Positions 776-64,000 of a DNA stretch of 64,000 nucleotides are shown here, one piece after another (within the stretch, counting starts at the first letter, position 1; the number at the start of each line of letters is the position of its first letter). The position numbers were made by a program, and so were the translations under genes. The DNA comes from a virus. The notes beneath the pieces were generated by a model. The model was not told where the DNA came from and did no database searches. It saw only the letters and a list, made by a program, of their open reading frames with translations. Location: the IMG/VR virus record IMGVR_UViG_3300025009_000051, positions 1 to 64,000 of that record. One strand, written 5' to 3'.

Positions 776-1303
776 ATGAAAAAAATAGTAACCATTTTTG
801 TATTATTCTTTTTACTGAATAATATGCATGCACAAATTCAAAATATCGATAATTCCAAAGATCTCCTAATCTTTCGATTTTATGAACAAGACACTTTATT
901 AATAAATATTGATACTGCATATATATTCAATAAAAGAACTTTTAATTTATACAACAAAGCATACGACGCATACAGAACAAACAAGACCTGCTCCTTATTT
1001 TATGAACCCATTTTACTGGATCTGAATAATCAAATAGCTTTCCACGAATCGGAATATAAAAAACTCAATAAATTATTTGATGAACAACTTATAAGTAATG
1101 AATTTTATTTAGCGGAGTCAAATAAAAATATTGAATTTCTTAAAAATAATAATAGACTTCTCTCAGATAACAATATTAAATTAAACGACGAAATAAAGGC
1201 TCTTAATAAAAGCTATAAATGGAAAATGGTTAAGGTAGGCGCAATTTCTTTTGGGATAGGTTGTACTGCAACCACAATAGCGTGGCTATTATTGAAAAAA
1301 TAA
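776..1303 (+). CDS. Exported coiled-coil protein with N-terminal signal peptide and C-terminal membrane anchor
   Basis: MKKIVTIFVLFFLLNNMHA/Q signal peptide, central coiled coil, hydrophobic C-terminus GAISFGIGCTATTIAWLLLKK. Confidence 0.7.
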   Translation: MKKIVTIFVLFFLLNNMHAQIQNIDNSKDLLIFRFYEQDTLLINIDTAYIFNKRTFNLYNKAYDAYRTNKTCSLFYEPILLDLNNQIAFHESEYKKLNKLFDEQLISNEFYLAESNKNIEFLKNNNRLLSDNNIKLNDEIKALNKSYKWKMVKVGAISFGIGCTATTIAWLLLKK

Positions 1304-4736: not shown

Positions 4737-4763
4737 ATAAATATAAAACATGGTTATATTTAT
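4737..4763. promoter_or_regulatory. Divergent pair of TATATTTAT putative late promoters (4737-4745 on -, 4755-4763 on +)
   Basis: Each copy lies 17-19 nt upstream of the ATG of a large structural gene; the same motif precedes many other genes. Confidence 0.6.
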
Positions 4764-4780: not shown

Positions 4781-7624
4781 ATGAGTAACTTTGTACCAAT
4801 AGGAAGAAAAAAAATATTCAAACAAAATTTAATAGAATTTCAAACAAAAATAGTTGACAGTTCTATAAATTCTAAAAATTATTTTAATGTTGAGTTTCCT
4901 TCTATTTTAAAAGCAGGAAAAAATTTAATTAAATTAAAACCTACTGGTAGCATCAACGCAGATAAAATATTAATAGAAATTTTAGATTCTAATAATAACC
5001 CAATAGTATATGAATTTTCTGAATATAAAGATAAAGATAATGCAATATTAATTAACGCCATTATTTATCCAGAAACAGCAAACGGAATCGGATCTATAAC
5101 ATTAATAGGAGTTGCTTCTATTGATTTAATAACTTTTTTACCTATAACAAATTTAAATGATTATAATATTAAATGGAGTTCAGAAATTGAAATAAATAAA
5201 TATTCTATAACCGAATCTACAATTATATTTGATGAATATCCAGAAATTACAATAAATAAAAATTTTGTGCCCTATAATAATTTAGATTTTATTTCTGGTA
5301 GAAATGTTACAATATCAGGATCTATAGACGAATATTATTATTTGCCTTCTATGAAACTGACAACAGAAAACGAATTTGATATAAAAAGAAAATCTTTAGC
5401 TTCAGATTCATCTCAATCTACAATTTCAGAGAATGCACAAATTAATTTAGATAATGTTGAAAATATTGAAATAAAATTTGTACAGAAAAAAGATACAAGA
5501 ATAGTTGCACCAAATGGGTTTGCATTTGAAGAATTTAAAAGACCGGTGGTATCTATAGACGGTACTTTTGGATATACCTTTACAAAAGAAATGATTGGAG
5601 CCGAAATAACTATTTCAAATATCACACAACCATCTTTACCTGCAAATCATTATTTTAGTTCAAGTATAGATTTAAATTATGAAACTACAATTACCAGAGT
5701 ATTAAATTCTACCACTATAGAATTAGCCGAGCCATTTGTGAGAAGAATATATAAATTGAACTCAACTACAAATAAAAAATTATATTCAAATTATGTATTT
5801 CATTCTTTTTCTGGTGGGACTGCTACAATTGTTTATAATGGTGAACCTACGTACACTGCGAGCGAATATTATAATAATAATGCAAGCATAAATATACAAA
5901 CATTAAATCCGTTTTCTGGATTAATTGATAAAATTAAAATATATGAAAAAAGCTCGGCTGCTCAAGTACCATATAAATTAATCCATGAAGAAGAAATTTT
6001 AAGTAAGAATATATTCATAGATAGCAATAATATTATTCCGGATTATAGTGTCGGCGATTTTAAAAGTTTGGCTCACTTCAATACATATTGGGATTATAGT
6101 GGAAGTGGGCCTGTAGACCCAACATCAAATGCATATCTTTTAAATTCGATTTATTTATATAAATCAAGAATATTGCCCAAGACAGGTATAAATGTATATG
6201 CAAATCATAAATATCAAATAATTTTTAATTTGATAGGAAGCAATGAAACAAATGAGGATAATTTAGATGTAGATGCCACCGGAACTTGTGTAAATTCTAC
6301 AACGAATATTGCAACAATAACAATATCAGAAGATAAAGAATTAAAATATAATAATCTTTCATTTTTATTTGAACCAGAAAAAGACGGTACCTTTTTTATT
6401 AATTTTAATACTTCTTCTGGATTTTGGTATATTTCAGATGTGAGAATTTTATCATTTGCTGAATATGGGTTTAATCCTAAACTATACAATTTTAAAATTC
6501 CAATTAATCCTTTATGGCCAAATGAAATTGTAAATTTTAAATTTGAATTTTATAATTCTAAAAACGAAAAATCTAATCAATTTGTAGAAATAAAGAATAT
6601 TATATTTGATTCATATACTCCAACTATAATCGCTGGGGATTATAATTTGCTTTCGGGCAGTTTAAAATTTGGATCCATTTCAGATGTGGGCATTGAATTA
6701 TTTGGTTCCGCAACCGGATCATATATTAAATCAAAAGGATACGAGGGTCAAGCCGGAACTGTTCCGGGTTTCATGCTATGGTCAGGCTCCGTTTCTGCGG
6801 GCAGCGAGTCCTATTCTGATGTAGGTATTGAAATATATGTATCAGACACAAAAAAAATTGTATTATCATCAGATCCTTTGAAAGAAGATATTGTGCAAGT
6901 TGAATCTGGATCTTTTAATAGCAGTGATTTTTTATTTGGAGATTCAACAAAAGCTCTCGGATTTATCAGTGGAAGTAATGGAACAGTAGAAGCAAGAATT
7001 TATAAAAGCGGTAGTTATCAAGATTCTATTTTTCATATAACTGCATTTAATGATATGTATCCGGCAGATCAAGAACCATTGATATATATAGATGTTAGAT
7101 CATCTGCTGCTTATCATTTAACTGGTATGTATTTACAAGTGATAAACACTCGTGGTACAGGTTCTTCTTATAATTATGGATTAGATAATTATACATCTGC
7201 AGGATCTGGGGACGTTAGAGGAGTTAATATAGATGCATCGGCGAATGGTTCTGGAGACAATGCATATGGTATTTATAGCAAAGGTAGAACAGGAAGCAAT
7301 GGATATGCATATGGAGGATATTTTATAGGACAAGTAACAAATTCTACACTATATAAACCGTTTGGTATTTATGCATCTGCAGTAGATACTGTAGGAACTT
7401 CTACCGGATATGCAGGGTATTTTGATGATGGAGATGTATATATAGCAAATAATGTTGAAATACAAGGTAGTATGGACATCGAAAGTAATATAATTTGTAG
7501 TGGTTCGGTCGATTCTTATTTAGGTTTTGCTTGTGCGGGATATTCTGGTATTACATCTACATTTGAAGATAATATTGGTAGAACTGTTAGAATTAGGGGC
7601 GGAATAATTTATGATATTACATAA
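4781..7624 (+). CDS. Large virion structural protein (baseplate/tail fibre-like)
   Basis: 947 aa, beta-rich; C-terminal Gly/Tyr repeats (AYGIYSKG, AYGGYFIG, PFGIYASA, GYAGYFD) typical of fibre beta-helices. Confidence 0.6.
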   Translation: MSNFVPIGRKKIFKQNLIEFQTKIVDSSINSKNYFNVEFPSILKAGKNLIKLKPTGSINADKILIEILDSNNNPIVYEFSEYKDKDNAILINAIIYPETANGIGSITLIGVASIDLITFLPITNLNDYNIKWSSEIEINKYSITESTIIFDEYPEITINKNFVPYNNLDFISGRNVTISGSIDEYYYLPSMKLTTENEFDIKRKSLASDSSQSTISENAQINLDNVENIEIKFVQKKDTRIVAPNGFAFEEFKRPVVSIDGTFGYTFTKEMIGAEITISNITQPSLPANHYFSSSIDLNYETTITRVLNSTTIELAEPFVRRIYKLNSTTNKKLYSNYVFHSFSGGTATIVYNGEPTYTASEYYNNNASINIQTLNPFSGLIDKIKIYEKSSAAQVPYKLIHEEEILSKNIFIDSNNIIPDYSVGDFKSLAHFNTYWDYSGSGPVDPTSNAYLLNSIYLYKSRILPKTGINVYANHKYQIIFNLIGSNETNEDNLDVDATGTCVNSTTNIATITISEDKELKYNNLSFLFEPEKDGTFFINFNTSSGFWYISDVRILSFAEYGFNPKLYNFKIPINPLWPNEIVNFKFEFYNSKNEKSNQFVEIKNIIFDSYTPTIIAGDYNLLSGSLKFGSISDVGIELFGSATGSYIKSKGYEGQAGTVPGFMLWSGSVSAGSESYSDVGIEIYVSDTKKIVLSSDPLKEDIVQVESGSFNSSDFLFGDSTKALGFISGSNGTVEARIYKSGSYQDSIFHITAFNDMYPADQEPLIYIDVRSSAAYHLTGMYLQVINTRGTGSSYNYGLDNYTSAGSGDVRGVNIDASANGSGDNAYGIYSKGRTGSNGYAYGGYFIGQVTNSTLYKPFGIYASAVDTVGTSTGYAGYFDDGDVYIANNVEIQGSMDIESNIICSGSVDSYLGFACAGYSGITSTFEDNIGRTVRIRGGIIYDIT

Positions 7625-7641
7625 AAATAAATTAAAATAAA

Positions 7642-7673
7642 TTTGTTTAATTCATTTATTCGTTGTATATTTG
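7642..7673 (+). promoter_or_regulatory. Bacteroidota sigma70-type early promoter TTTG-N20-TATATTTG
   Basis: Matches the -33 TTTG / -7 TAnnTTTG consensus; embedded in a repeated about 70-nt cassette. Confidence 0.8.
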
Positions 7674-7702
7674 TAATATAAAAACAATTAAATATATTAA
7701 CA

Positions 7703-8623
7703 ATGAAAACAAAACTTTTTTTAATTTTAATGATATTTGTTCAAGTAACTTTTGGACAATTGCAAATTCAAAATTTGAGTTGGGAGTATGAAGATGAACA
7801 ATTAAATGTTAATATGTCTGTTTCAGATCCTATTAATAATTTTAAGCCTTATTTAGTAATGTATCATTCATACAACGAAATTTTAGATGGTGGGGATATT
7901 ATGATGACATCATTTAATACTGGGTCTAACACAATTTTAACTTCTGGTGAGACATTTTTGTTTAATATATCTGAAGAAATTGAATGGCCACTAATAGAAT
8001 ATATAATATTTCAATTGGGGAGTTCAGTAGATCCGACCGGACCAAGTGATACAATAGCAATAAAAATTTTCAAAAAAAGAGGAACAGTATATGTTTCAGA
8101 TATAAATATAACAGTCAACAATGATATAATTCAATTTAATTATGATTATCAAAATCAAACTACAAATCATCTGACATTTAATCATTTAGTTTATTTATCA
8201 AATGATAGTATTCTATCGGAAGAAGATGAATTGTTATTTAATGAAGAAGAAGAAATAGGCATTGGCGAAACTGAAACTATTAATTCAAATGTTACTGCAA
8301 ATGTAACAAATAAATATTTAATATTTGAAATGAAATATTCATTAAATGATCCTTATTATTGTGATAAAAAATACATTTATTTTGGACAAACAGAAATAGA
8401 AGAAATTCAAATTTCTAAAATATATCCAAATCCAACCAAAGATATCATTAATATTCCTACTGAAATAAATAAAGTATTGATATTTGATATAACAGGTAAA
8501 TTAATTCAATCAGTAACTAATACAAATCAAATAAATTTAATTGATTATACTTCTGGGGTATATTTTGTAAAAGGATATAAAGATGATGTATTATTAACTG
8601 AAGAAAAAATTATAAAACTTTAA
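7703..8623 (+). CDS. Secreted protein with T9SS (Por) type A C-terminal sorting domain
   Basis: Signal peptide ending TFG/Q; Ig/CARDB-like YLSNDSILSEEDELL; CTD IYPNPTKDIINI...IFDITGKLI...INLIDYTSGVYFVK...KIIKL. Confidence 0.85.
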   Translation: MKTKLFLILMIFVQVTFGQLQIQNLSWEYEDEQLNVNMSVSDPINNFKPYLVMYHSYNEILDGGDIMMTSFNTGSNTILTSGETFLFNISEEIEWPLIEYIIFQLGSSVDPTGPSDTIAIKIFKKRGTVYVSDINITVNNDIIQFNYDYQNQTTNHLTFNHLVYLSNDSILSEEDELLFNEEEEIGIGETETINSNVTANVTNKYLIFEMKYSLNDPYYCDKKYIYFGQTEIEEIQISKIYPNPTKDIINIPTEINKVLIFDITGKLIQSVTNTNQINLIDYTSGVYFVKGYKDDVLLTEEKIIKL

Positions 8624-8956
8624 CTAATATAACAATTTAATTCGAAGTTATTTCCAACATCGTTGCCTCGATTAAATATTTGAATGTGAAGGGCCTTATT
8701 TTTTAAGGCTTTTCCATTTTTTTGTCAACAATATCATATATCTATTAGTTTTACCTTCAGAAGGTTTCTTTGGCCCCATTCCTATTTTTTGAGCAGTTTC
8801 TTCATCATCATATTCATACCCTTGTTTCTTAGCATACTCTAATGCAGCGTTTATAGCAGAAGTAAATGATGAATGATATAGAGGATATTTTTCTTCTTTT
8901 AAAACTTGTTTGATTAAATCTTTTATTTCTGTCAAGGTGATTTTAGAATTTGCCAT
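8620..8956 (-). pseudogene. Small head-type protein gene with an apparent 1-nt frameshift in an A7 run (8717-8723)
   Basis: Removing one A extends the 86-aa ORF (LTKNGKALKNKALHIQIFNRGNDVGNNFELNCYIS*) to a stop at 8620-8622 that overlaps the stop of the convergent gene. Could be an assembly error. Confidence 0.6.
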
Positions 8957-9015
8957 AGTTATTTTTTTAAATAAATATAAAAAATATTTTTTTATTTTAA
9001 ATTAATTTTGTAAAT

Positions 9016-9324
9016 TTGTATAATGAATTAATAAATAAAATAATCATGAATATAAAACTAAATTCCAACGAACAAATAAGAATTGAAACTTCTTATACAA
9101 GAATAGACAATAATTTTATAAATATTACTTCTTTAAATGATTGTATTGGATTAAGAATTACCAATTGGTCTAATATAAGACAATATACCGAAATCAGAAA
9201 AAAAGATAATCAAATAGCAATGTTCATTTTTAAGAAAAAAAGAGATAAAAAATATGCTAATTTGGGTTGGTGGGAAGATGCTGAAGTAGTATATAGCTGC
9301 AACGAAGTTAAACTCGAAGAATAA
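9016..9324 (+). CDS. Hypothetical protein
   Basis: ORF track; TAAATTTG promoter-like motif upstream; start may be the internal Met at about 9046. Confidence 0.55.
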   Translation: MYNELINKIIMNIKLNSNEQIRIETSYTRIDNNFINITSLNDCIGLRITNWSNIRQYTEIRKKDNQIAMFIFKKKRDKKYANLGWWEDAEVVYSCNEVKLEE

Positions 9325-9407: not shown

Positions 9408-10742
9408 TCATATAAAAGAGTATAAATCTATATAACTCTTCTTGCTTTGATTTAATCTGAAAACACTTACCAGATGCTCTTGAATAGCCTCTTCGAGTGA
9501 AACTCGATATTTAAATTTCAAGTTTTTTACAAGCGTGAACAATTTCTTCCAATCTTCAACCCATTCAATTCCCATTTCCTTCCATTGGTGTTGAATTGAA
9601 CTTTTTGGGCTGAAGACTGGATAGAAACCATTCTTGTTTTTCTTTACCTTCCACTCATAGCCTCTCCTTGCAATTTCAATGCTTGCATTCACCGAATCAG
9701 TGAAATCATATTGGAGATTTCCAATGAAAGATGAATATGCCGGATTGACTGAATGAAGATTGATTTGAAAGATGTTTAATCTCTTATTTAGATTTGAGAC
9801 GAATAATTCTCGCTTCCATAAATTTCTATTCTTCCTATTTCCAAGATGATTATATTTTTGGTTCAAACTTAATTTCATTTTGAATTTAAGATCTTCAATG
9901 AAAACATTTTTACATTGAAAATGCTTCGCAAGAATTGAAATTGATTTTGAGATTTGAATTGTTTCAAATTGAAGCTTGTCCTGAAAATATTTCATCTTAG
10001 ATGAATTTGAACTCAAATCCGAATTTAAAATTTTATCAAAAATAGGTTGAAGTGAATATTCTTGTGTATGAATTATATTCCCATCTTCAAGGATTGAAAC
10101 TCCTATGTTATCGGGATTTAGATCAATTCCAAGATATCTCTCATTCTTCAAATTTAAATTCTCTCCATCTTTAAATTCTTCAAATGAAATATAAAGTTCT
10201 TTTTCTGTCAATCTGACCGAGTAGGTATAACCGTCATTTTCATTCAACATTTCTAATTTTTCTAACACCTTCTTATAATTATTTCTTAGATTTGGTAATT
10301 TCAAAAAATAATGTTCTTTTCTATTCACCTTAAATTCGATCATACTATCATTCAATAAATGCAAGTTGCACATTCTATTACCATGATAATTAGCTTCACC
10401 TTGAATATTCAAAGGAAGCAATCTCTTTTCTTTCAATTCTTCTTTTGTCATCTTTCCTTTCATTCTTTCAATAAAATTTTTCTTTCCTCCAAAAACAATC
10501 TTCTTTTCTTTAAATCTTGAATGAAGTTGATTGGCCTCCATAATCGCACATTGTTGCAACCAGCTGTTAGCATTTTCAATTCCCCTCAATTCTTTCAGGC
10601 TATGTCTAATATTAATTTGTTTCATCTTCTCTTGGTATCTATTAAATGCATATCTAACAATCAATGAATATTCTCTTCGAAGCTCTTTCAGCTTCTCATA
10701 AAATCTTTCATTTGCAGTATATGGAATTTTAATAGTTATCAT
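9408..10742 (-). mobile_element. tnpB: TnpB-family (IS200/IS605/IS607 accessory; Cas12f-like) RuvC nuclease, no transposase nearby
   Basis: RuvC-I YLGIDLN, RuvC-II VFIEDL, VNPAYSS motif, RuvC-III TDSVNASIEIARRG. No Zn-finger cysteines. Base composition looks less AT-rich than flanks. Confidence 0.85.
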
Positions 10743-14269: not shown

Positions 14270-14545
14270 ATGAAAAAAATTAATTTAGTTATATTATTAT
14301 TGTTATTAATTTCTATATTTTCTTGCGTTGAATCAAAAGAAGATAATGAAAAATTAATAGACGGTAATGTTGAAATTGACTATGTGAAAAGCAATACTAC
14401 ATTAACAAATGCAAAAATAATTGAGATGGATTCTTGTGAATATATTCAATATCATGTATATTTTTATGAAGCTATTACTCATAGAGGCAGATGTAAATAT
14501 TGTGCAGAAAGATTAAAAAAAGCATTAAACAATTTAGAAAAATGA
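14270..14545 (+). CDS. Putative lipoprotein
   Basis: Lipobox-like ISIFS/C; C-terminal ITHRGRCKYC. Confidence 0.65.
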   Translation: MKKINLVILLLLLISIFSCVESKEDNEKLIDGNVEIDYVKSNTTLTNAKIIEMDSCEYIQYHVYFYEAITHRGRCKYCAERLKKALNNLEK

Positions 14546-15141: not shown

Positions 15142-15879
15142 ATGAAAAAATTATTATTGTTTGTTGTTTTTGCATTATTTTTTATTAATGTGTTTTCTCA
15201 AAACGATACATTAAATTATTATGATTTAAATAATAATCCTAAAGGAAATTTTAACACTTATATTTCCGAAGATAGTTCAATTTTCCATGTGGGAGATACA
15301 ATAAATGGAAAGATAATATCGAAAATTATAATTGGTGGTACGCGAGGAGATTATAAAGCTCAATACTTGACAAATGATCACAATTTATATTTTTTTGACG
15401 ATATTAACAATTCTATTACCTTTTCTACTCAAAATGGTGAAATATATTATTCGGAAATAATTGTTAATAATAAAAGTAAAGAAGATTTATATTTTTTAGC
15501 AAAAGAGTGGTTTGTCGTGGCATTTAAATTCCCCAAATATGTAATTCAGATAGATGATAAAGATAGGGGAATAATTTTTGTTAAAGGTGCATTCGAAGTT
15601 TTTACCTGTTTTAATAACTATAAAGAATTGGGGCAAGTAAATTTTACAATTTCTATAGAAGCCGAAAATAACAAATATAGATATACAATTACAAATGTAT
15701 GGCACGAATGTGACAATGTGCCTACTCCCGGCAATCTATTAAAAGACTCCCCGGGCGGGCATTGGTCTAATACTATGGGAGAAAAGAATTGGAATTGTAT
15801 AAAAAAACAAACTCAGCAAAACATACAAGATTTAAAATTAAGTATTATTTCGCACATGGATAAAGAAATAAAATGGTAA
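15142..15879 (+). CDS. Secreted protein with DUF4468-like domain
   Basis: Signal peptide ending VFS/Q; SKEDLYFLAKEWFV..FK....VIQIDDKDRGII..KG motif. Confidence 0.7.
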   Translation: MKKLLLFVVFALFFINVFSQNDTLNYYDLNNNPKGNFNTYISEDSSIFHVGDTINGKIISKIIIGGTRGDYKAQYLTNDHNLYFFDDINNSITFSTQNGEIYYSEIIVNNKSKEDLYFLAKEWFVVAFKFPKYVIQIDDKDRGIIFVKGAFEVFTCFNNYKELGQVNFTISIEAENNKYRYTITNVWHECDNVPTPGNLLKDSPGGHWSNTMGEKNWNCIKKQTQQNIQDLKLSIISHMDKEIKW

Positions 15880-38652: not shown

Positions 38653-40797
38653 ATGAAAGAATTCACAAGGTTAATTCAAGCACAGTTTGATAAAATGTGT
38701 GCTACAGGAAAACTGTTCAGAAGCTCATTAAGTGGGCAAGAAGTTTGGGATTTATATATTAAAGGATTTTTACCTAAGTATAATCCAATATTTAGAGACC
38801 CAGACAGTTCTACGCATAATTGCAATCTTTGCAAAAACTTTATACGAAGATATGGTAATATTGTAGCAATAGATGAAAAATATGATATTGTTACTATGTT
38901 TGATATTTATCCTCCGGAAGAATTTGAAATGGTTGTAAAAAGTTTGTCAACTGCTATTAAGAAAGCTAAAATAAGTGAAGTATTTTTTGAAACATTTGAT
39001 GAATTGAATTCTCTTCCTTATGAACGATGCACTAAAAGCAACGAAAAATTCAAATTGGGAGTAGATGTGAATTACAAACAATACACAAAAGAAGAAGCCG
39101 AAAAATTTGGTGTCACATTCATTAAGCCAGAAGAAATAAGAACATTTGATCATTTACATTTATATTTACCAAAACAATATGTAGATATGAGTGGAAAATC
39201 AATTGAATCCATTATGGCTGAATATCGAGATGCTAAAGAAGTATTTAAAAGAGCAATGGATGAAATTCCGGTAGATACTTTGAATCTTGTAGTTGATTTA
39301 ATTAATCAAGGAAGTTTGTTAAATGGTCAAACACATTTATATAAGATACAACAAATCTTACCATTGAAGAAAAATTACGATGAACTTGCAAAATCAAAAA
39401 CAGATACTTGGTGCTGGGTTAATTCATATAAACTTCCTTTCGCAAAATTTAAAAACGAATTGATAGGAGTATTATGTACTGAGTTAGCTGAAGGGAAAGA
39501 ATTAAACGACGCCTGCCAAGCATGGAATAAAAGAGTTGATCCTGCAAATTATATGAAGGCTACTGCTCCAATCACTAAAAATCAAATTGAAGAAGCAAGA
39601 AAATTTGTAGAAGAAAATGGTTATACCGAATCATTTGATAGAAGATTTGCATCTATAGATGATATTAAAGCTTCTGAAATTAAGCATATTAATGTTGGGG
39701 ATGGAAGAATGAAATCAGTTTCTATTTTTGATAATGTTAAATCAACTTCTACAAGACATAAAAGAAGTGAATTCGATGGAGTTGAAGAAGTATCGATAGA
39801 AAAATTTATGCAAGACATTTTACCTGGTTGTACTTCGGTAGAAGCGTTTTTAGCAAATAAATTTGGTGAAAATATGGTTTCACTCACTACTTCAAACAAT
39901 AAAGAAGGCAAACCCATTTTTAAATGGTCTAATAATTACAGTTGGACATTCAATGGAAATTTGGCAGGTAAAAGTATGATTAAAGAAGCTGTCCAAACCA
40001 AGGGTGGAAAAGTAGATGGAGTTTTGAGATTTTCAATAATGTGGGCAGAAGGTGAAACAAACGATAATTCAGATTTAGATGCTTGGGCGGCAGAACCAAA
40101 TGGAACAGCAATTGGATATTCGTCGGGATATAGAAAAGATCGAGGAAACACCAGAACTTCGATGTCAGGACAATTAGATGTTGATATCACAAATCCAGAT
40201 AGCTATTATCATAAAAACATTGTTGAAAATATAGCTTGGACAGATTTAAGTAAAATGAAAAATGGAAGTTATAGATTTTGGGTTAATCAATTTTCTGCAA
40301 GAAATTCTAAAGGATTTAAAGCCGAAATAGAATTTAATGGAGAAATTTATTCTTATGTTTACGACACGCCAGTTTCAGGGAATGTCAATGTTGCAGAAGT
40401 TACTTTGAATAATGGTGAATTTACAATTAAACACATTTTACCAGAAAGTGAAACTTCATCAAAAGAAATTTATGGATTACAAACAAATGAATTTCACAAA
40501 GTCAATTTAGTATGTTTAAGTCCGAATCATTGGGATGATAATAAAGTTGGAAACAAACATTATTTCTTTATGTTAGAGGGTTGTAAATGTCAGACAAGCA
40601 TTAGAAGTTTTCACAATGAAAATTTAATACCAGACTTATTATTGCACAGAAAAGTATTGGAAGTATTAGGTGCAACGAATATGATTAATCCTACAGAAAA
40701 ACAATTATCAGGATTAGGATTTAATGCTACAGTTCGAGACGAAGTCATTTTAAGATTACAAGGTACATTTAAAAGAGTAATAAAAGTAAAATTTTAA
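38653..40797 (+). CDS. Large uncharacterised phage protein with C-terminal YfaP/DUF2135-like beta-sandwich
   Basis: HNCNLCKNFI Zn-like motif; VDPANY; GVLRFSIMW...SDLDAWAAEPNG...GQLDVD...VENIAW...Y.FWVNQF. Confidence 0.65.
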   Translation: MKEFTRLIQAQFDKMCATGKLFRSSLSGQEVWDLYIKGFLPKYNPIFRDPDSSTHNCNLCKNFIRRYGNIVAIDEKYDIVTMFDIYPPEEFEMVVKSLSTAIKKAKISEVFFETFDELNSLPYERCTKSNEKFKLGVDVNYKQYTKEEAEKFGVTFIKPEEIRTFDHLHLYLPKQYVDMSGKSIESIMAEYRDAKEVFKRAMDEIPVDTLNLVVDLINQGSLLNGQTHLYKIQQILPLKKNYDELAKSKTDTWCWVNSYKLPFAKFKNELIGVLCTELAEGKELNDACQAWNKRVDPANYMKATAPITKNQIEEARKFVEENGYTESFDRRFASIDDIKASEIKHINVGDGRMKSVSIFDNVKSTSTRHKRSEFDGVEEVSIEKFMQDILPGCTSVEAFLANKFGENMVSLTTSNNKEGKPIFKWSNNYSWTFNGNLAGKSMIKEAVQTKGGKVDGVLRFSIMWAEGETNDNSDLDAWAAEPNGTAIGYSSGYRKDRGNTRTSMSGQLDVDITNPDSYYHKNIVENIAWTDLSKMKNGSYRFWVNQFSARNSKGFKAEIEFNGEIYSYVYDTPVSGNVNVAEVTLNNGEFTIKHILPESETSSKEIYGLQTNEFHKVNLVCLSPNHWDDNKVGNKHYFFMLEGCKCQTSIRSFHNENLIPDLLLHRKVLEVLGATNMINPTEKQLSGLGFNATVRDEVILRLQGTFKRVIKVKF

Positions 40798-43654: not shown

Positions 43655-44773
43655 ATGCAAAAAGTCCAATCAGTAATTGGATTAGGTTTTGGAGACGAAG
43701 GTAAAGGTATAACTACCGATTACCTTTGCTCTAAAGCTGATAATCCATTAGTAATAAGATTTTCAGGAGGCCAACAAGCAGGGCATACTGTTTATCTAAA
43801 TGATAAGAAGCATGTGTTTTCTAATTTTGGCTCTGGTACTCTTCGTGGAGTTCCAACTTATTGGTCTAAATATTGTTCATTTGATCCTGAAGGGGCATTA
43901 AATGAATTAAAAGTTTTAAAAGAAATTGGAATAGAACCGATCTTATATATAGACTGCAAATGTCCTATCACTACACAATTCGAAAAATTCTTTAATCAAA
44001 AAAATAATTTTGCTCATGGTACCGTGGGAGTCGGAGTTGGCCCAACATTCAAAAGAGAAGAAGAGTTTTATTCTTTATTAGCAGAAGATATATTCTTTCC
44101 AGAAGTGGTTAAAATTAAATTAAAATTATTTTATAGCTATTATAATTCTACAGGATCTTTAGAGGAATATTCAAATTATTTTTTAAATTTACTTGAACAG
44201 ATAAAAAATTCATTTATAGTCACAAAGAATATGAATATGAATTTTATCAAGTATGATTTAATTGCAGAGGGTTCTCAAGGATTATTATTAGATCAGCATC
44301 ATGGATTTTTTCCTCATGTTACTCGTTCTAATACCGGAACAAAAAATTTAATTGAAATGGGATTAGAACCAGAATTATTTCTTGTCACAAGAGCGTATCA
44401 AACTCGGCACGGAAATGGTCCAATGTCAAATATAGGATTAGATTTAAATTTAATTAAAAATAAAGATGAAACAAATGTGTATAATGAATATCAAGGAGAA
44501 TTCAAAAAAACTGTTTTGGATTTGAGTCTCTTACAATATGCAACATACAAAGATGAATATATTAGAGATAATATTTTAAATGCTACTCTTGTTATCACTT
44601 GTATAGATCAATTAAATACAAGATTTCCTATAACCTTAACCTTAAAAAATGATATAAAATATTTTGATAATAAAAATGCGTTTGTTAAATTTATTAAAAA
44701 TCAATTAAATGTTAAAGAAGTATATATTTCAGAATCTCACTATGCAGACGATATTAGAAAATTTGAAGAATAA
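43655..44773 (+). CDS. Divergent adenylosuccinate synthetase-like protein
   Basis: GFGDEGKG, GGQQAGHT, EGSQGLLLD, PHVTRS and RAYQTRHGNGP present; aspartate-binding TTGRxR loop absent. Confidence 0.85.
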   Translation: MQKVQSVIGLGFGDEGKGITTDYLCSKADNPLVIRFSGGQQAGHTVYLNDKKHVFSNFGSGTLRGVPTYWSKYCSFDPEGALNELKVLKEIGIEPILYIDCKCPITTQFEKFFNQKNNFAHGTVGVGVGPTFKREEEFYSLLAEDIFFPEVVKIKLKLFYSYYNSTGSLEEYSNYFLNLLEQIKNSFIVTKNMNMNFIKYDLIAEGSQGLLLDQHHGFFPHVTRSNTGTKNLIEMGLEPELFLVTRAYQTRHGNGPMSNIGLDLNLIKNKDETNVYNEYQGEFKKTVLDLSLLQYATYKDEYIRDNILNATLVITCIDQLNTRFPITLTLKNDIKYFDNKNAFVKFIKNQLNVKEVYISESHYADDIRKFEE

Positions 44774-47514: not shown

Positions 47515-48027
47515 ATGAAAAAATTAAGGATTATTGTGTTATTATCATTTATGGTAATGTTATTTGGATTTGGATGTGGAGAAAGCGGGTCTCCATCAGA
47601 TACAGAAATGAGCAAACAAAATGAACTAATTCTTCAAGAATCAATCAGACAATTGGGTATGCCGGCAATTGTGAATTTTCAAGAAAAGAAAAACTTGAAA
47701 TGGATATACGAATTATGTGATCAAGAAAAATTTATTTGCCATGTATATCTTTATAATGCTATGACAGGTGAAGTAGGTCAATATTTGGGTGAATGTATTG
47801 GATATGGAATTCCTTATTCTACTCAATATAGTAATCCACAAAAAGTAGATATTTGGAATTATTCATCTGAAGGAATTTATACACTACCACAAGCAGAACC
47901 TAATGGATTATTTAAAGCTGAAGGACAAAGTGCCACATGGGTTATTATGATTGATCCAGTAAGCAAAGAACCAAGACCAGTGTATATTGAACCGGATATT
48001 ATTGTATCACCATTTAAATTGAAATAA
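47515..48027 (+). CDS. Phage lipoprotein
   Basis: Lipobox FGFG/C; IGYGIPYSTQYSNPQ, PQAEPNGLF and YIEPDIIVSPFKL motifs. Confidence 0.75.
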   Translation: MKKLRIIVLLSFMVMLFGFGCGESGSPSDTEMSKQNELILQESIRQLGMPAIVNFQEKKNLKWIYELCDQEKFICHVYLYNAMTGEVGQYLGECIGYGIPYSTQYSNPQKVDIWNYSSEGIYTLPQAEPNGLFKAEGQSATWVIMIDPVSKEPRPVYIEPDIIVSPFKLK

Positions 48028-61428: not shown

Positions 61429-64000
61429 TTACAAAGATTTTTTAACTGTATCTATCTTATGAATAATTTCTTCTTCAGTCAATATATTCTTTTCGTTTAA
61501 TAAATTAGTATTCTTCATTCTTTTAATCATTTCTTTTCTATATTGTTTTTTTCTTTCTACCAATCTTTTATTTGATTTTTCTTTATTTTTATCAAACTGT
61601 TCAAAAGTAGCTTTAATTAATCTTTGTTTTTTAGTATCTAAATCTTCTGCAGTATCTGATTTCTTTAATTTAGATTCTGACCAAGTATCTTCATCAGTTT
61701 TAGTATTAGAAGTTTCTTTAGTAACAGCTGGATCATTACCTTCTTCAGCAATTTGATTATATCTAAACATTCTTTTCAAATCTTCTGGAATATCTTTTTC
61801 TTGCCATTTTTTATAATCGTCTTCTGTCATATTAAATAACTCGGTATAAATCCATTCCATTGGAACTAATCTTGCTTCTATAAAACTCTTAGCTAATTCT
61901 AATTTACTTGTCCATAATTCAACTCTTTCTTGTTCTGCTAATTTAGAAGAAGTAGTTAATTTTAGTTCAAATTGAGTTAATTGTTCATCTGTAAATCCTT
62001 GAGAATATAAGTGTATTAAAGCAAGTTTTGTTAATTCAGTTTCTACTACTCTTTGAACTCGTTCTATTGATCTACTAAATCTAACATCTTCACTCGCGAG
62101 ATTCGATTTCGCATTCATGGATTCTTCGAAAGTTAGGAACGATTTTGGAATCTTTAAACTTGCTAATAAATTATTCATCTCATATTGAATATCTTCTAAT
62201 CCTGTGAATTCCATTCCTGGTAATGTATCAAATTCAGTTCCGCTTTTATCTCCTCGAACGGGTAAAAAGAAATCCTCCAAGCTTGAATTTTTAACAAATA
62301 TACCGTTTCTCGATTCTCCTTCATGAGTAATAGTAGCAAAATTATGATATTCGGCTACCGTCATACAATATACATCTTCTTTTTTTGTTAATAATTCAAT
62401 TTTTTTAATTTTATGATTTATTTTTGATGTAGAAACCTTTTTCATGAATTCATCTACATTTATATATCCTCTTTCTCGAATTGCTCTTTTAATTGTATGC
62501 ATCATAAATTCTTTAGGTTTTTTTCTACCTGCGTTTAATTTCAAATAATATTCATATAATCCATTAATATTATTCATCTCATCACATATTTTTCTTATTG
62601 TCATATTTTCATTTTCTGAAACGATTATCTTAATAGTATTAAATAAATAATCATCAAATTTATCTTTCATTGCATTTGTTACTTTTTCTTTATAATTTTT
62701 ATCTTCCCATCTTCGTTTATTTTCTTGTTTCATAAAATTCCTTTTCTTTAATCTTTCTTCCTTAGACATAGGATTTAATTTTAAAGTTAATTTTATTTTA
62801 TTTTTTATTTCGTTTGCTTTTTCAATTCCAAATACTTCTTCGTAAGATTTTCCCTTTAATTTATTTTCGAATTTTGATTTTTTTCCTTTTTTACTATCGC
62901 TTAATTTTTTTATTGTTTCCTCAGTTCTTATATAGGGTATCATATTTTCTTTCATCCATTTTGAATGTTCCGGTCGTTTTTTATCTTGAAAAGTTGCAAC
63001 CCTACCATTTTTAAATTGTTCAGAAACAACACCAGATATTTTTTCTCCTAATTTTTTTAATCTGATATCTGTTTCTTTAGTCTTGCCTTTGCTCCAAATT
63101 TTTAATTCTCCTGAACTAAACATTTCTTTTAATGTTGCTTTTCTTTTCTCATTAATAATATTTAATTCTTCTTGAGATTTATTATTCCACATCGTATTAT
63201 TTCTATGATATCTAATATGTTCTGAAGATGTCATAGAACAATCTAAATTATCTGGAGAATTGTTTAATTTTTTAAAATCCTTATGATGAACTACATTTTT
63301 GTTTGCATTATACTCATTTAGATTTAAAGCAGATGCAACTAATCTATGAGTATATTCATATTTTTCTGTTTTTGGATTAAAAATTAATTCATAATCTGCA
63401 ATGTTTTTTTGAGTTGATAAAGTAGTATAAAACGGCATTATAGATTCTTCTTCTTTTAAATCTTTAGCCATTTTATAATCTCCATTTCTTAACATTACTG
63501 GATGTGATGGCTCAACATCTAAATAACTACTATCATCTAAAGTTATTCTTATTATATCTGCTTCTTTAATAGTTAATCCGCACCATTCAACTTTTCCGGG
63601 TACAATTTTATTATTATCATTTTTATCTATAGAATATACATAATTTATTTTTCCTTGTTCATATTCTTCTGATAATTCTTTTATTGTTATTTCTCTTCCA
63701 TCTAATAAAGGAATTATTGAATACCATGCAATTGGCATAAGGTTAAATCTCATATTGTATTCACCCGTTTCCGGATCCATATAAGGAACCTTTTTCATAT
63801 TATTTATTACTAAATTCATATGAGCGGCTACTTCATTAGGTGGAATATTTCCTACATCAACTTTAATTACTCTTCTTTCAGGTGCTCTCATTATTCTTGC
63901 TAATAACATTGCATCTTCTAATAAAGTAATTCTTTTCCAAGTTCTTCTACCATTTTCTAAAATACTCTTACCATAAGGAATAAGATTAAAATCAGATAAT
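61429..64000 (-). CDS. Portal protein (T4 gp20-like) with intein; 5' end beyond the window
   Basis: Frame stays open past 63909 (PYGKSILENGRRTWKRITLLEDAMLLARIMRAPERR); EDFFLPVRG, TLPG, LKIPKSFL. Confidence 0.92.
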   Translation of the reverse strand, partial: LSDFNLIPYGKSILENGRRTWKRITLLEDAMLLARIMRAPERRVIKVDVGNIPPNEVAAHMNLVINNMKKVPYMDPETGEYNMRFNLMPIAWYSIIPLLDGREITIKELSEEYEQGKINYVYSIDKNDNNKIVPGKVEWCGLTIKEADIIRITLDDSSYLDVEPSHPVMLRNGDYKMAKDLKEEESIMPFYTTLSTQKNIADYELIFNPKTEKYEYTHRLVASALNLNEYNANKNVVHHKDFKKLNNSPDNLDCSMTSSEHIRYHRNNTMWNNKSQEELNIINEKRKATLKEMFSSGELKIWSKGKTKETDIRLKKLGEKISGVVSEQFKNGRVATFQDKKRPEHSKWMKENMIPYIRTEETIKKLSDSKKGKKSKFENKLKGKSYEEVFGIEKANEIKNKIKLTLKLNPMSKEERLKKRNFMKQENKRRWEDKNYKEKVTNAMKDKFDDYLFNTIKIIVSENENMTIRKICDEMNNINGLYEYYLKLNAGRKKPKEFMMHTIKRAIRERGYINVDEFMKKVSTSKINHKIKKIELLTKKEDVYCMTVAEYHNFATITHEGESRNGIFVKNSSLEDFFLPVRGDKSGTEFDTLPGMEFTGLEDIQYEMNNLLASLKIPKSFLTFEESMNAKSNLASEDVRFSRSIERVQRVVETELTKLALIHLYSQGFTDEQLTQFELKLTTSSKLAEQERVELWTSKLELAKSFIEARLVPMEWIYTELFNMTEDDYKKWQEKDIPEDLKRMFRYNQIAEEGNDPAVTKETSNTKTDEDTWSESKLKKSDTAEDLDTKKQRLIKATFEQFDKNKEKSNKRLVERKKQYRKEMIKRMKNTNLLNEKNILTEEEIIHKIDTVKKSL
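62287..63735 (-). mobile_element. 483-aa intein in portal with HNH endonuclease and NUMOD-like region; Pro at position 1, Cys at F4
   Basis: FNLM/PIAWYSIIPLLDG...EPSHP...THRLV...VVHHKDFKKLNNSPDNL...DVYCMTV..YHNF...GIFVKN/SSLEDFF. Confidence 0.88.

What the first reader, a model, noticed from the sequence alone, without database searches (positions are those of the whole stretch)
7642..8623. Phage-encoded cargo for the host type IX secretion system
Seen: an early host-type promoter drives a 306-aa acidic protein with a Sec signal peptide (Gln +1), an Ig/CARDB-like body and a clear YPNP...TGK...G.Y...K type A CTD. Known: this CTD routes proteins through the Bacteroidota T9SS to the surface or medium. 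Inference: the phage uses T9SS to display or release its own protein early in infection. Possible roles are superinfection exclusion, receptor masking, jamming T9SS or gliding, or altering adhesion. I know of no characterised phage T9SS effector.
Basis: partly seen in the sequence, partly recalled or inferred. Interest (0 to 1): 0.78.

Follow-up and report, generated by a model that had tools for sequence, protein, structure and literature searches.

The report
Phage-encoded T9SS cargo protein gene
A large uncultured phage of a Bacteroidota-type host carries a self-contained gene for a small acidic protein with both export signals of the host's type IX secretion pathway, so infected cells probably export it; such genes have been reported in phages before, and none has been tested.

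Summary
ORF 7703-8623 (+) encodes 306 aa, pI 4.3. It has a Sec-type signal peptide with predicted cleavage TFG|Q, and a full-length C-terminal T9SS type A sorting domain (Pfam PF18962 45.1 bits, cut-off 27; TIGR04183 39.9 bits, cut-off 23). The body is an orphan that resembles two CARDB-like beta-sandwich modules; the second is moderately supported and the first only weakly.

The contig is a T4-like phage (portal, terminase, tail tube, baseplate). Its gene signals fit a Bacteroidota host, and its nearest cultured relatives are Cellulophaga and Flavobacterium phages.

The promoter at 7642-7673 matches the Bacteroidota -33/-7 consensus. It is one of about 20 copies of a phage-wide promoter family. 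That family drives nucleic-acid-enzyme genes and small ORFs. A second motif (TATATTTAT) drives virion genes and both neighbours of this gene. "Early" is therefore supported by association only.

The idea is not new. Bellas et al. 2020 and de Jonge et al. 2019 reported T9SS-tagged phage genes. I found further examples in two huge phages (634 and 642 kb) and in cultured Flavobacterium phage immuto (gp015). This scan holds 196 notes with these search words in at least 182 other genomes; the seven follow-ups on phage genomes shown confirmed their observation. Export and function remain untested.

Verdict: a real new member of a known but uncharacterised kind, of moderate interest.

The parts
7642..7673 (+). 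Promoter box of the phage-wide class 1 family. -33 TTTG at 7642-7645, 20-nt spacer, -7 TATATTTG at 7666-7673. It ends 29 nt before the ATG.
   Evidence: It matches the Bacteroidota sigma-A consensus TTTG / TAnnTTTG (consensus from established knowledge). It differs at 2 of 32 positions from the family consensus, which recurs 14 or more times across the 184-kb contig, 19-57 nt before start codons.
7703..8623 (+). Complete ORF of 306 aa (stop codon included): the predicted T9SS cargo.
   Evidence: GC 23.7% and GC3 12%, against 26.7 +/- 3.5% and 17 +/- 4.7% for the contig's genes.
7703..7759 (+). Sec (signal peptidase I type) signal peptide, residues 1-19. Predicted cleavage is TFG|Q, with Gln at +1.
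   Evidence: Direct reading plus a hydropathy heuristic. There is no Cys, so it is not a lipoprotein signal. Two other exported ORFs of the phage (776, 15142) also have Q at +1.
7760..8086 (+). Body module 1 (residues 20-128): all-beta, weakly CARDB-like.
   Evidence: 8.7 bits to a profile of CARDB repeats, against a maximum of 7.7 in 2000 shuffles; hhalign probability 7%. Beta strands in the low-confidence AF2 model. ESM Atlas neighbours are CARDB clusters.
8087..8419 (+). Body module 2 (residues 129-239): CARDB-like beta-sandwich with the 'VYLSxDxxLxxxDxLL' hallmark.
   Evidence: 23.4 bits, against a maximum of 7.6 in 2000 shuffles; hhalign probability 80%. phmmer E 4.3e-4 to a 12-stretch CARDB protein.
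8420..8620 (+). T9SS type A C-terminal sorting domain (residues 240-306).
   Evidence: PF18962 45.1 bits (cut-off 27). TIGR04183 39.9 bits (cut-off 23). The best PDB sequence matches are a CTD-only chain (8glj_D) and a CTD-bearing lipase (7pzj_A), both weak.
8688..8724 (+). Intrinsic-terminator-like hairpin (11 pairs) followed by a T run, 65 nt after the stop codon. It lies in the 3' end of the convergent 86-aa ORF.
   Evidence: It is the only terminator-like site in 7300-9100; shuffles give a mean of 0.2. The fold of 8624-8730 has z = -3.64.

Best explanation
This is a phage-borne, self-contained expression cassette (promoter, ORF, terminator) for a cargo protein of the host's type IX secretion system.

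Proposed pathway:
1. Host RNA polymerase with its housekeeping sigma factor reads the Bacteroidota-type promoter. This is probably the phage's early class.
2. The pre-protein crosses the inner membrane through Sec and is cut after TFG. The new N-terminal Gln is probably cyclised, as is usual in Bacteroidota.
3. The folded periplasmic protein is recognised through its type A CTD by the host T9SS. It is moved across the outer membrane, then either released or attached to the surface after CTD removal.

The mature part is about 220 residues, very acidic, and has no recognisable catalytic domain. It looks like two CARDB/Ig-like beta-sandwiches, so it is more likely a binding or shielding protein than an enzyme.

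My preferred role is remodelling of the infected cell's surface, for example blocking adsorption of further phages. In flavobacteria, resistance to tailed phages maps to T9SS and gliding genes.

What is shown: gene structure, both sorting signals, phage origin and promoter-class membership. What is inferred: expression timing, export, CTD cleavage, surface location and role.
For: - CTD above both curated cut-offs, full length, and at the extreme C-terminus.
- Signal peptide with Q at +1.
- Phage identity: T4-like portal, terminase large subunit, tail tube, baseplate wedge, DnaB, UvsX-like recombinase and split RNR.
- Bacteroidota host signals: SD-like motifs before only 6 of 258 genes; Q at +1 in three exported proteins; a DUF4468 gene. 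The nearest cultured relatives are Cellulophaga phages phi17:2 and phi4:1 (54% identity on one protein) and Flavobacterium immuto phages.
- The gene is native to the phage: its promoter is a member of a family of 14 or more near-identical boxes spread over 160 kb; its composition matches the phage; the identical protein is recorded on 6 contigs, the longest 292,100 bp.
- Promoter classes: class 1 drives NAD ligase, RtcB, an HD hydrolase, the CCA-adding enzyme, DUF932 and KH genes and small ORFs. Class 2 (TATATTTAT, 14-fold enriched upstream of genes) drives terminase, tail tube, baseplate wedge and RusA genes. A TATATTTAT core also precedes both flanking genes, although only the 86-aa ORF's copy meets the strict class 2 pattern.
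- The same architecture (signal peptide, small beta-sandwich body, type A CTD) occurs in other phages: LR756502.1 and LR745206.1 (a 31%-identical pair with matching flanking ORFs), and cultured Flavobacterium phage immuto gp015, which has Cohesin and Por_Secre_tail domains and is conserved in 3 isolates.
- Literature: Bellas 2020. Flavobacterial phage resistance maps to T9SS and gliding genes (PMC12781566).
Against: - Nothing is measured: no transcript, no secretion and no CTD processing.
- The host is unknown, so its possession of a T9SS is assumed from phylum-level signals.
- The body has no homologue apart from one borderline CARDB match. The AF2 single-sequence model is poor (pLDDT 41), so 'non-enzymatic binding protein' rests on weak evidence.
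- No orthologue was found in related phages, so conservation cannot argue for function.
- 'Early' is by analogy with T4-type regulation and has not been shown for any Bacteroidota phage of this group.
- The superinfection-exclusion role is speculation.
Confidence: 0.72

Rival explanations
1. T9SS jamming or decoy. The CTD itself is the business end. An abundant early phage cargo occupies the PorV/SprA translocon and cuts export of host cargo (adhesins, receptors, enzymes). The body is only a folded passenger needed for recognition.
For: The body has no recognisable activity. The CTD is full length and well conserved. Huge phages carry even smaller versions of 186-199 aa.
Against: A 220-residue two-module body is more than a passenger needs. 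One cargo among the many that such bacteria normally export (established knowledge) would need very high expression to compete. Nothing has been tested.
Confidence: 0.12
2. Neutral passenger. This is a host T9SS cargo gene picked up by the phage and carried without benefit to it.
For: The CTD's nearest relatives are bacterial: Epilithonimonas at 42% identity, with other hits at 40-43%, over the CTD only. No orthologue was found in related phages. A TnpB-like gene lies 800 bp downstream.
Against: The frame is intact. Phage-like GC and GC3. A phage-family promoter and its own terminator. No bacterial homologue of the body among 1.8 billion representatives apart from one distant CARDB protein. 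The protein is identical on 6 contigs.
Confidence: 0.1
3. Virion decoration protein. This would be a Hoc-like chain of Ig-like domains on the capsid or tail, with the CTD serving only as one more beta-sandwich. The hydrophobic N-terminus would not be cleaved, or the true start would lie further downstream.
For: Ig-like domains are common on phage virions (Fraser et al. 2006, cited in PMC6949934). The gene follows a 947-aa ORF with a TATATTTAT (late-type) core 26 nt before its start and weak tail-fibre or tail-spike leads.
Against: The N-terminus is a canonical signal peptide with Q at +1. Between the listed start and the CTD (residues 240-303) the only Met codons are at residues 10 (still inside the signal peptide), 38, 53, 67, 68 and 210, so any downstream start would remove N-terminal body sequence. 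The gene has an early-class promoter, unlike the virion genes. Virion proteins assemble in the cytoplasm.
Confidence: 0.04
4. Assembly chimera: the stretch is host DNA joined to phage DNA by mis-assembly.
For: The record is an uncultured metagenomic contig, linear, with 79% estimated completeness.
Against: Phage-type promoters lie on both sides, and a phage-family promoter lies on the gene itself. There is no compositional break. The identical protein is recorded on 6 contigs in several sources, the longest 292 kb.
Confidence: 0.02

Closest known systems
Phage-encoded T9SS type A CTD genes of 'Cryophage' (Bellas et al. 2020, Nat Commun, PMC7468147)
   Same: Genes on an uncultured phage genome that end in a type A sorting domain. 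[quoted passage not shown]
   Different: The Cryophage cargos carry recognisable domains (endoglucanase, GH39, PA14) and are hypervariable island genes. This one has a small orphan CARDB-like body with no enzyme domain, and it sits behind a defined host-type promoter class in a T4-like large phage.
Flavobacterium phage vB_FspM_immuto_2-6A gp015 (YP_010114427.1, annotated 'cohesin domain-containing protein')
   Same: Signal peptide with Q at +1 (LYS|Q), one small beta-sandwich body and a type A CTD above the Pfam cut-off (34.6 bits). It is 243 aa long and lies in a roughly 160-kb myovirus that shares other genes with this contig.
   Different: The body is a Cohesin domain (36.7 bits), not CARDB-like, and there is no sequence similarity outside the CTD. 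The record as shown does not name the CTD in the product field. This phage is cultured and has a known host, so it is testable.
186-aa and 199-aa signal-peptide + CTD ORFs of huge phages LR756502.1 (642 kb) and LR745206.1 (634 kb) (records consistent with Al-Shayeb et al. 2020, PMC7162821)
   Same: Signal peptide, a short all-beta-looking body and a type A CTD (50.9 and 47.7 bits). Al-Shayeb et al. predicted Bacteroidetes hosts for all five of their genomes above 634 kb; I link these records to that study by size only.
   Different: They have half the body length and no similarity outside the CTD. The two are about 31% identical with matching flanking ORFs, whereas no orthologue of the present gene was found.
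Bacterial T9SS type A cargo (TIGR04183 / PF18962), e.g. CTD-bearing CARDB proteins of Bacteroidota
   Same: The same tripartite build of Sec signal, passenger and about 70-residue CTD, with CTD motifs conserved.
   Different: This one is encoded by a virus, its body is an orphan, and it is expressed from a phage-specific version of the host promoter.
Morons of tailed phages (lambda lom and bor, and similar)
   Same: An autonomous promoter-ORF-terminator unit that encodes an envelope protein and is inserted between genes of another transcriptional class, next to a likely fibre gene.
   Different: Classical morons are expressed from prophages. This phage looks virulent and T4-like, and the promoter belongs to a family shared with its own metabolism genes.

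Membership tests
T9SS type A CTD cargo (TIGR04183 / PF18962) | Match to the curated sorting-domain profile above its cut-off, over the full domain length | tested here: met
   PF18962: 45.1 bits (cut-off 27), profile 1-73 of 75. TIGR04183: 39.9 bits (cut-off 23), profile 1-71 of 72. Six-frame scan: 49.1 bits.
T9SS type A CTD cargo (TIGR04183 / PF18962) | Domain lies at the extreme C-terminus of the protein | tested here: met
   Residues 240-303 (PF18962) or 240-305 (TIGR04183) of 306.
T9SS type A CTD cargo (TIGR04183 / PF18962) | N-terminal Sec signal peptide for export to the periplasm | tested here: met
   Basic n-region, 13-residue hydrophobic core, T at -3, G at -1 and Q at +1. This is direct reading plus a hydropathy heuristic. 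No dedicated predictor was available.
T9SS type A CTD cargo (TIGR04183 / PF18962) | Producer cell has a T9SS (host in Bacteroidota or a related phylum) | not testable with these tools
   The host is unknown. Indirect signals point to Bacteroidota/Flavobacteriia: promoter consensus, almost no SD motifs, Q at +1 and relatives that infect Cellulophaga and Flavobacterium.
T9SS type A CTD cargo (TIGR04183 / PF18962) | T9SS-dependent secretion with removal of the CTD | not testable with these tools
   Needs expression in wild-type and T9SS-mutant cells.
T9SS type B CTD (TIGR04131) / type C (NF033708) | Match to the type B or type C profile above its cut-off | tested here: not met
   No type B hit at E<=0.1. 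The type C profile scores 17.8 bits against a cut-off of 40.
CARDB domain (PF07705) | Match to the Pfam profile above its gathering score | tested here: not met
   No CARDB hit at E<=0.1. I therefore call the body CARDB-like, not a family member.
CARDB domain (PF07705) | Detectable similarity to bona fide CARDB repeats, and a CARDB-type fold | tested here: inconclusive
   phmmer E 4.3e-4 to a protein with 12 Pfam CARDB stretches. Module 2: 23.4 bits against a maximum of 7.6 in shuffles, hhalign 80%. Module 1: 8.7 bits against 7.7, hhalign 7%. Atlas structural neighbours are CARDB clusters at TM 0.42-0.51. My own AF2 model was too poor to use.
Bacteroidota sigma-A (housekeeping) promoter | -33 TTTG and -7 TAnnTTTG separated by about 19-21 nt, upstream of a gene | tested here: met
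   7642-7645 and 7666-7673, with a 20-nt spacer, ending 29 nt before the ATG. The full pattern occurs 38 times on the contig, against 11.2 +/- 3.6 in shuffles. The consensus itself is from established knowledge. Activity was not tested.
Moron-like autonomous cassette | Own promoter and own terminator, with flanking genes in a different transcription class | tested here: met
   Promoter. Terminator-like hairpin at 8688-8724. A TATATTTAT core lies before the 947-aa ORF (at 4755) and before the 86-aa ORF (at 8979).

The most novel reading that the evidence does not exclude
The protein would be an early-expressed phage effector that the host T9SS places on the surface of the infected cell. There it would mask or disable the T9SS-dependent or gliding-associated receptor used by this and competing phages. 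That would be a superinfection-exclusion or anti-adsorption mechanism routed through a secretion system, and no phage T9SS cargo has yet been experimentally characterised.
Probability: 0.2. Interest if true: 0.7.

Novelty: new member of a known kind. Interest (0 to 1): 0.38.

Why it matters
T9SS cargo shapes the surface, motility, feeding and virulence of Bacteroidota. In flavobacteria, resistance to tailed phages commonly maps to T9SS and gliding genes (PMC12781566).

Phage genes that feed their own proteins into this pathway would be a route by which viruses rewrite the host surface during infection. They could affect superinfection, adhesion and biofilm behaviour.

This locus adds three things:
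- a clean example with a defined promoter class;
- a recurring design across several unrelated large phages (signal peptide with Q at +1, small beta-sandwich body, type A CTD);
- a culturable counterpart, Flavobacterium phage immuto gp015, in which the idea could be tested.

It does not establish a new principle.

Tried and rejected
- Sequence relatives of the whole protein. None in 50,697 phage records or in IMG/VR by peptide patterns. The 5.8-billion-protein search gave only an identical fragment and CTD-only hits.
- PHROGs: no family for this protein or for the 947-aa neighbour.
- AF2 single-sequence model: pLDDT 41 and pTM 0.32. It was too poor, so I ran no fold search on it.
- Internal repeat test of the two body halves by BLASTP: no significant similarity.
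- Paralogy with the other Q(+1) exported ORFs of the phage (776, 15142): none.
- The sigma-70 consensus scan is uninformative in this AT-rich DNA: 18 sites found against 17.4 expected. I used the Bacteroidota consensus instead.
I therefore could not inspect the 292-kb contig or the 48-kb contig that encodes P0002.
- A tblastn census of phage CTDs with three different CTD proteins is too insensitive, finding only near-identical or orthologous copies. Profile scans of single records worked better.
- The four IMG/VR contigs with CTD genes are 3-16% complete. I did not check that they are viral, so they are not used as evidence.
- Identity of the upstream 947-aa ORF: no Pfam, PHROG or PDB match. 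Only weak tail-fibre or tail-spike leads, plus 27% identity to an unannotated stretch of Microcystis phage Mel-JY01.

Full report
**What is there.**
- Window 7703-8623 (+) is an intact 306-codon ORF.
- The product is acidic: pI 4.3, and the body has 35 D+E against 10 K+R.
- It begins with a canonical signal peptidase I signal: MKTK, a 13-residue hydrophobic core, then T-F-G|Q, with no Cys. Mature residue 1 is therefore Gln (heuristic only, since no SignalP was available).
- Residues 240-306 are a full-length T9SS type A sorting domain. PF18962 scores 45.1 bits against a cut-off of 27, and TIGR04183 scores 39.9 bits against 23.
- A six-frame scan of the whole 183,716-bp contig finds this as the only match at E<=1. 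None of 14 control genomes scores over the cut-off.
- The type B profile gives no hit, and the type C profile scores 17.8 bits, below its cut-off of 40.

**The body.** Residues 20-239 match no Pfam or PHROG family.
- An exhaustive phmmer search of 1.8 billion representatives returns, besides an identical fragment, one protein at E 4.3e-4 with four matched stretches. It is 4302 aa long and has 12 Pfam CARDB stretches.
- The alignments centre on the CARDB hallmark 'vYLSxDxxLdxxDxLL'. The query carries this twice, around residues 53-70 and 162-178.
- A post hoc profile of 11 of that protein's repeats scores module 2 (residues 129-239) at 23.4 bits, against a maximum of 7.6 in 2000 shuffles; hhalign probability is 80%. 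Module 1 scores only 8.7 bits against 7.7, with probability 7%.
- The ESM Atlas model of this exact protein has CARDB clusters among its nearest structural neighbours, at TM 0.42-0.51.
- My AF2 single-sequence model was unusable (pLDDT 41).
- 'Ig/CARDB-like' is therefore a fair description. Membership of Pfam CARDB is not shown.

**Is it a phage, and whose?**
- The window and the rest of the contig encode a T4-like portal with an intein, terminase large subunit, tail tube, baseplate wedge, DnaB, a UvsX-like recombinase, SSB, an exonuclease and a split ribonucleotide reductase.
- The record is an IMG/VR contig, linear, with 79% estimated completeness. The identical 306-aa protein is on record from 6 contigs, the longest 292,100 bp.
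- Host signals all point to Bacteroidota. Only 6 of 258 genes have an SD-like motif. Three signal-peptidase-I type exported proteins have Q at +1, and there is a DUF4468 gene.
- For conserved proteins, the nearest cultured relatives are Cellulophaga phages phi17:2 and phi4:1 (54% identity) and Flavobacterium immuto phages. The best hit overall is the 462-kb uncultured phage LR756500.1, at 71%.
- The CTD gene has GC 23.7% and GC3 12%, within about 1 SD of the contig's genes. Chimeric host DNA is therefore very unlikely.

**Promoter and timing.**
- The stretch at 7642-7673 reads TTTG, 20 nt, TATATTTG. This is the Bacteroidota housekeeping -33/-7 consensus (established knowledge).
- It differs at 2 of 32 positions from a box that recurs 14 or more times across the contig, always 19-57 nt before a start codon and followed by a similar A-rich leader.
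- Genes behind this class 1 box include an NAD-dependent DNA ligase, RtcB, an HD phosphohydrolase, the CCA-adding enzyme, DUF932 and KH-domain proteins, and many small ORFs.
- A second upstream motif is an A/T tract followed by TATATTTAT. Its core octamers occur in 35-39 of 116 upstream regions and are 10- to 14-fold enriched.
- This class 2 motif precedes the terminase, tail tube, baseplate wedge and RusA genes. A TATATTTAT core also precedes both neighbours of the CTD gene: the 947-aa ORF (core at 4755) and the convergent 86-aa ORF (core at 8979). Only the latter meets the strict pattern.
- By analogy with T4-type regulation, class 1 is the host-polymerase (early) class and class 2 is the late class.
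- A terminator-like hairpin with a T run lies at 8688-8724. The unit is therefore a self-contained, moron-like cassette set between genes of the other class.

**How it probably works.**
1. The host polymerase transcribes the gene early.
2. Sec exports the pre-protein, and signal peptidase I exposes Gln.
3. The folded protein is handed through its CTD to the host T9SS. It is then released or attached to the surface after CTD removal.

The passenger has no catalytic signature and looks like two small beta-sandwiches. I therefore favour a binding or shielding role on the infected cell's surface. Anti-adsorption or superinfection exclusion is attractive because resistance of flavobacteria to tailed phages typically maps to T9SS and gliding genes (PMC12781566). 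None of this has been tested.

Rivals are translocon jamming by the CTD, a neutral captured host gene, a virion Ig-like decoration protein, and an assembly chimera. The evidence for and against each is given in the rival entries.

**Comparison with what is known.** Phage-encoded T9SS cargo is not a new idea.
- Bellas et al. 2020 described three type A CTD genes in 'Cryophage' and proposed hijacking of the host system.
- de Jonge et al. 2019 noted T9SS sorting-domain ORFs in crAss-like phages.
- I found the same design in further phage genomes. The two huge phages LR756502.1 and LR745206.1 carry 186-aa and 199-aa versions with CTD scores of 50.9 and 47.7 bits. The two are 31% identical and have matching flanking ORFs. 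Al-Shayeb et al. predicted Bacteroidetes hosts for all five of their genomes above 634 kb, which fits these records by size.
- The cultured Flavobacterium phage vB_FspM_immuto_2-6A has gp015, with LYS|Q, Cohesin at 36.7 bits and Por_Secre_tail at 34.6 bits. It is annotated only as a cohesin protein and is conserved in three isolates.
- Not all relatives carry such a gene. Cellulophaga phage phi17:2, LR756508.1 and Microcystis phage Mel-JY01 gave no match. Cellulophaga phage phi4:1 gave only a 14.2-bit match, and LR756500.1 has only a sub-threshold candidate.
- This scan's own index holds 196 notes with these search words in at least 182 other genomes. The seven follow-ups on phage genomes shown to me confirmed their observation.

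**Verdict.** The novelty is modest: this is a new, orphan-bodied member of a known but experimentally uncharacterised kind. What this report adds is the two-class promoter analysis, which places the gene in the host-type class. It also adds the recurring 'Q(+1) signal, small beta-sandwich, type A CTD' design across unrelated large Bacteroidota phages, and a culturable phage in which the hypothesis can be tested.

Noticed in passing
whole contig; examples in the window at 4755(+), 8979(-), 10783(-), 30701(-), 32953(-), 54423(-), 55612(+), 59694(+): A second, phage-specific upstream motif: an A/T tract followed by TATATTTAT, 11-32 nt before start codons. Its core octamers occur in 35-39 of 116 upstream regions and are 10- to 14-fold enriched. 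It precedes terminase, tail tube, baseplate wedge, RusA, the TnpB-like gene and others. It is probably the late (or middle/late) promoter, with no -33 element, reminiscent of the T4 late promoter.
   Followed up: partly
window 776-1303, 14270-14545, 15142-15879, 47515-48027; contig 97124-97705, 99678-100016, 105801-106094, 112904-113782(-), 156311-156553(-): A crude scan flags 13 ORFs with a signal-like N-terminus, the T9SS cargo among them. Three signal-peptidase-I types have Q at +1 (776, 7703, 15142; the last carries DUF4468). About six look like lipoproteins, with a Cys after the hydrophobic core. The ORF at 776 has a degenerate copy of the class 1 box (5 mismatches), and those at 97124 and 99678 sit behind class 1 promoters.
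   Followed up: partly
NC_055915.1 12691-13422 (L022:1006-1737): Cultured Flavobacterium phage vB_FspM_immuto_2-6A gp015 is annotated 'cohesin domain-containing protein'. It also has a signal peptide with Q at +1 and a Por_Secre_tail domain above the cut-off, and it lies next to a C-type lectin domain gene. It is a testable phage T9SS cargo candidate.
   Followed up: partly
window 61429-63909 (-): The T4-like portal gene (Portal_T4, 136.9 bits) carries an intein splicing domain (PF14890, 58.6 bits) in its N-terminal half. It is a further intein, besides those noted earlier in the RNR and RecA genes of this phage.
   Followed up: no
window 43655-44773 (+): A divergent gene of the adenylosuccinate synthase family: phrog_1211 at 167 bits; PurA models at 104-119 bits, far below their cut-offs; PurZ model at 38.6 bits against a cut-off of 300. 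It could be a PurZ-like enzyme for a modified adenine, or a divergent PurA.
   Followed up: no
window 9408-10742 (-): A 444-aa ORF with a weak TnpB-related match (TIGR01766, 17.8 bits, below the cut-off of 32), behind a class 2 motif and 800 bp downstream of the cargo gene. Earlier notes of the scan report TnpB and omega-RNA copies elsewhere in this phage.
   Followed up: no
window 4781-7624 (+): A 947-aa ORF with a Gly/Tyr-rich repetitive C-terminal third and no Pfam, PHROG or PDB match. It is 27% identical over 57% of its length to an unannotated stretch of Microcystis phage Mel-JY01, with weak tail-spike or tail-fibre leads. A TATATTTAT (class 2-like) core lies 26 nt before its ATG. It is probably a fibre.
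   Followed up: partly
LR756502.1 325583-326140 and LR745206.1 298054-298650 (L006, L007): The two huge phages share a three-gene arrangement: a DnaJ-like gene, the signal-peptide + CTD gene, and a convergent 445-452-aa ORF with a Gly-rich C-terminus. The CTD proteins are only 31% identical, which suggests long-term retention.
   Followed up: no
window 38653-40797 (+): A 714-aa protein of unknown function (phrog_1735, 719 bits) is conserved in more than 500 large phages of very different hosts (Salmonella, Klebsiella, Bacillus, Vibrio, Cellulophaga), and one record names it YfaP.
   Followed up: no
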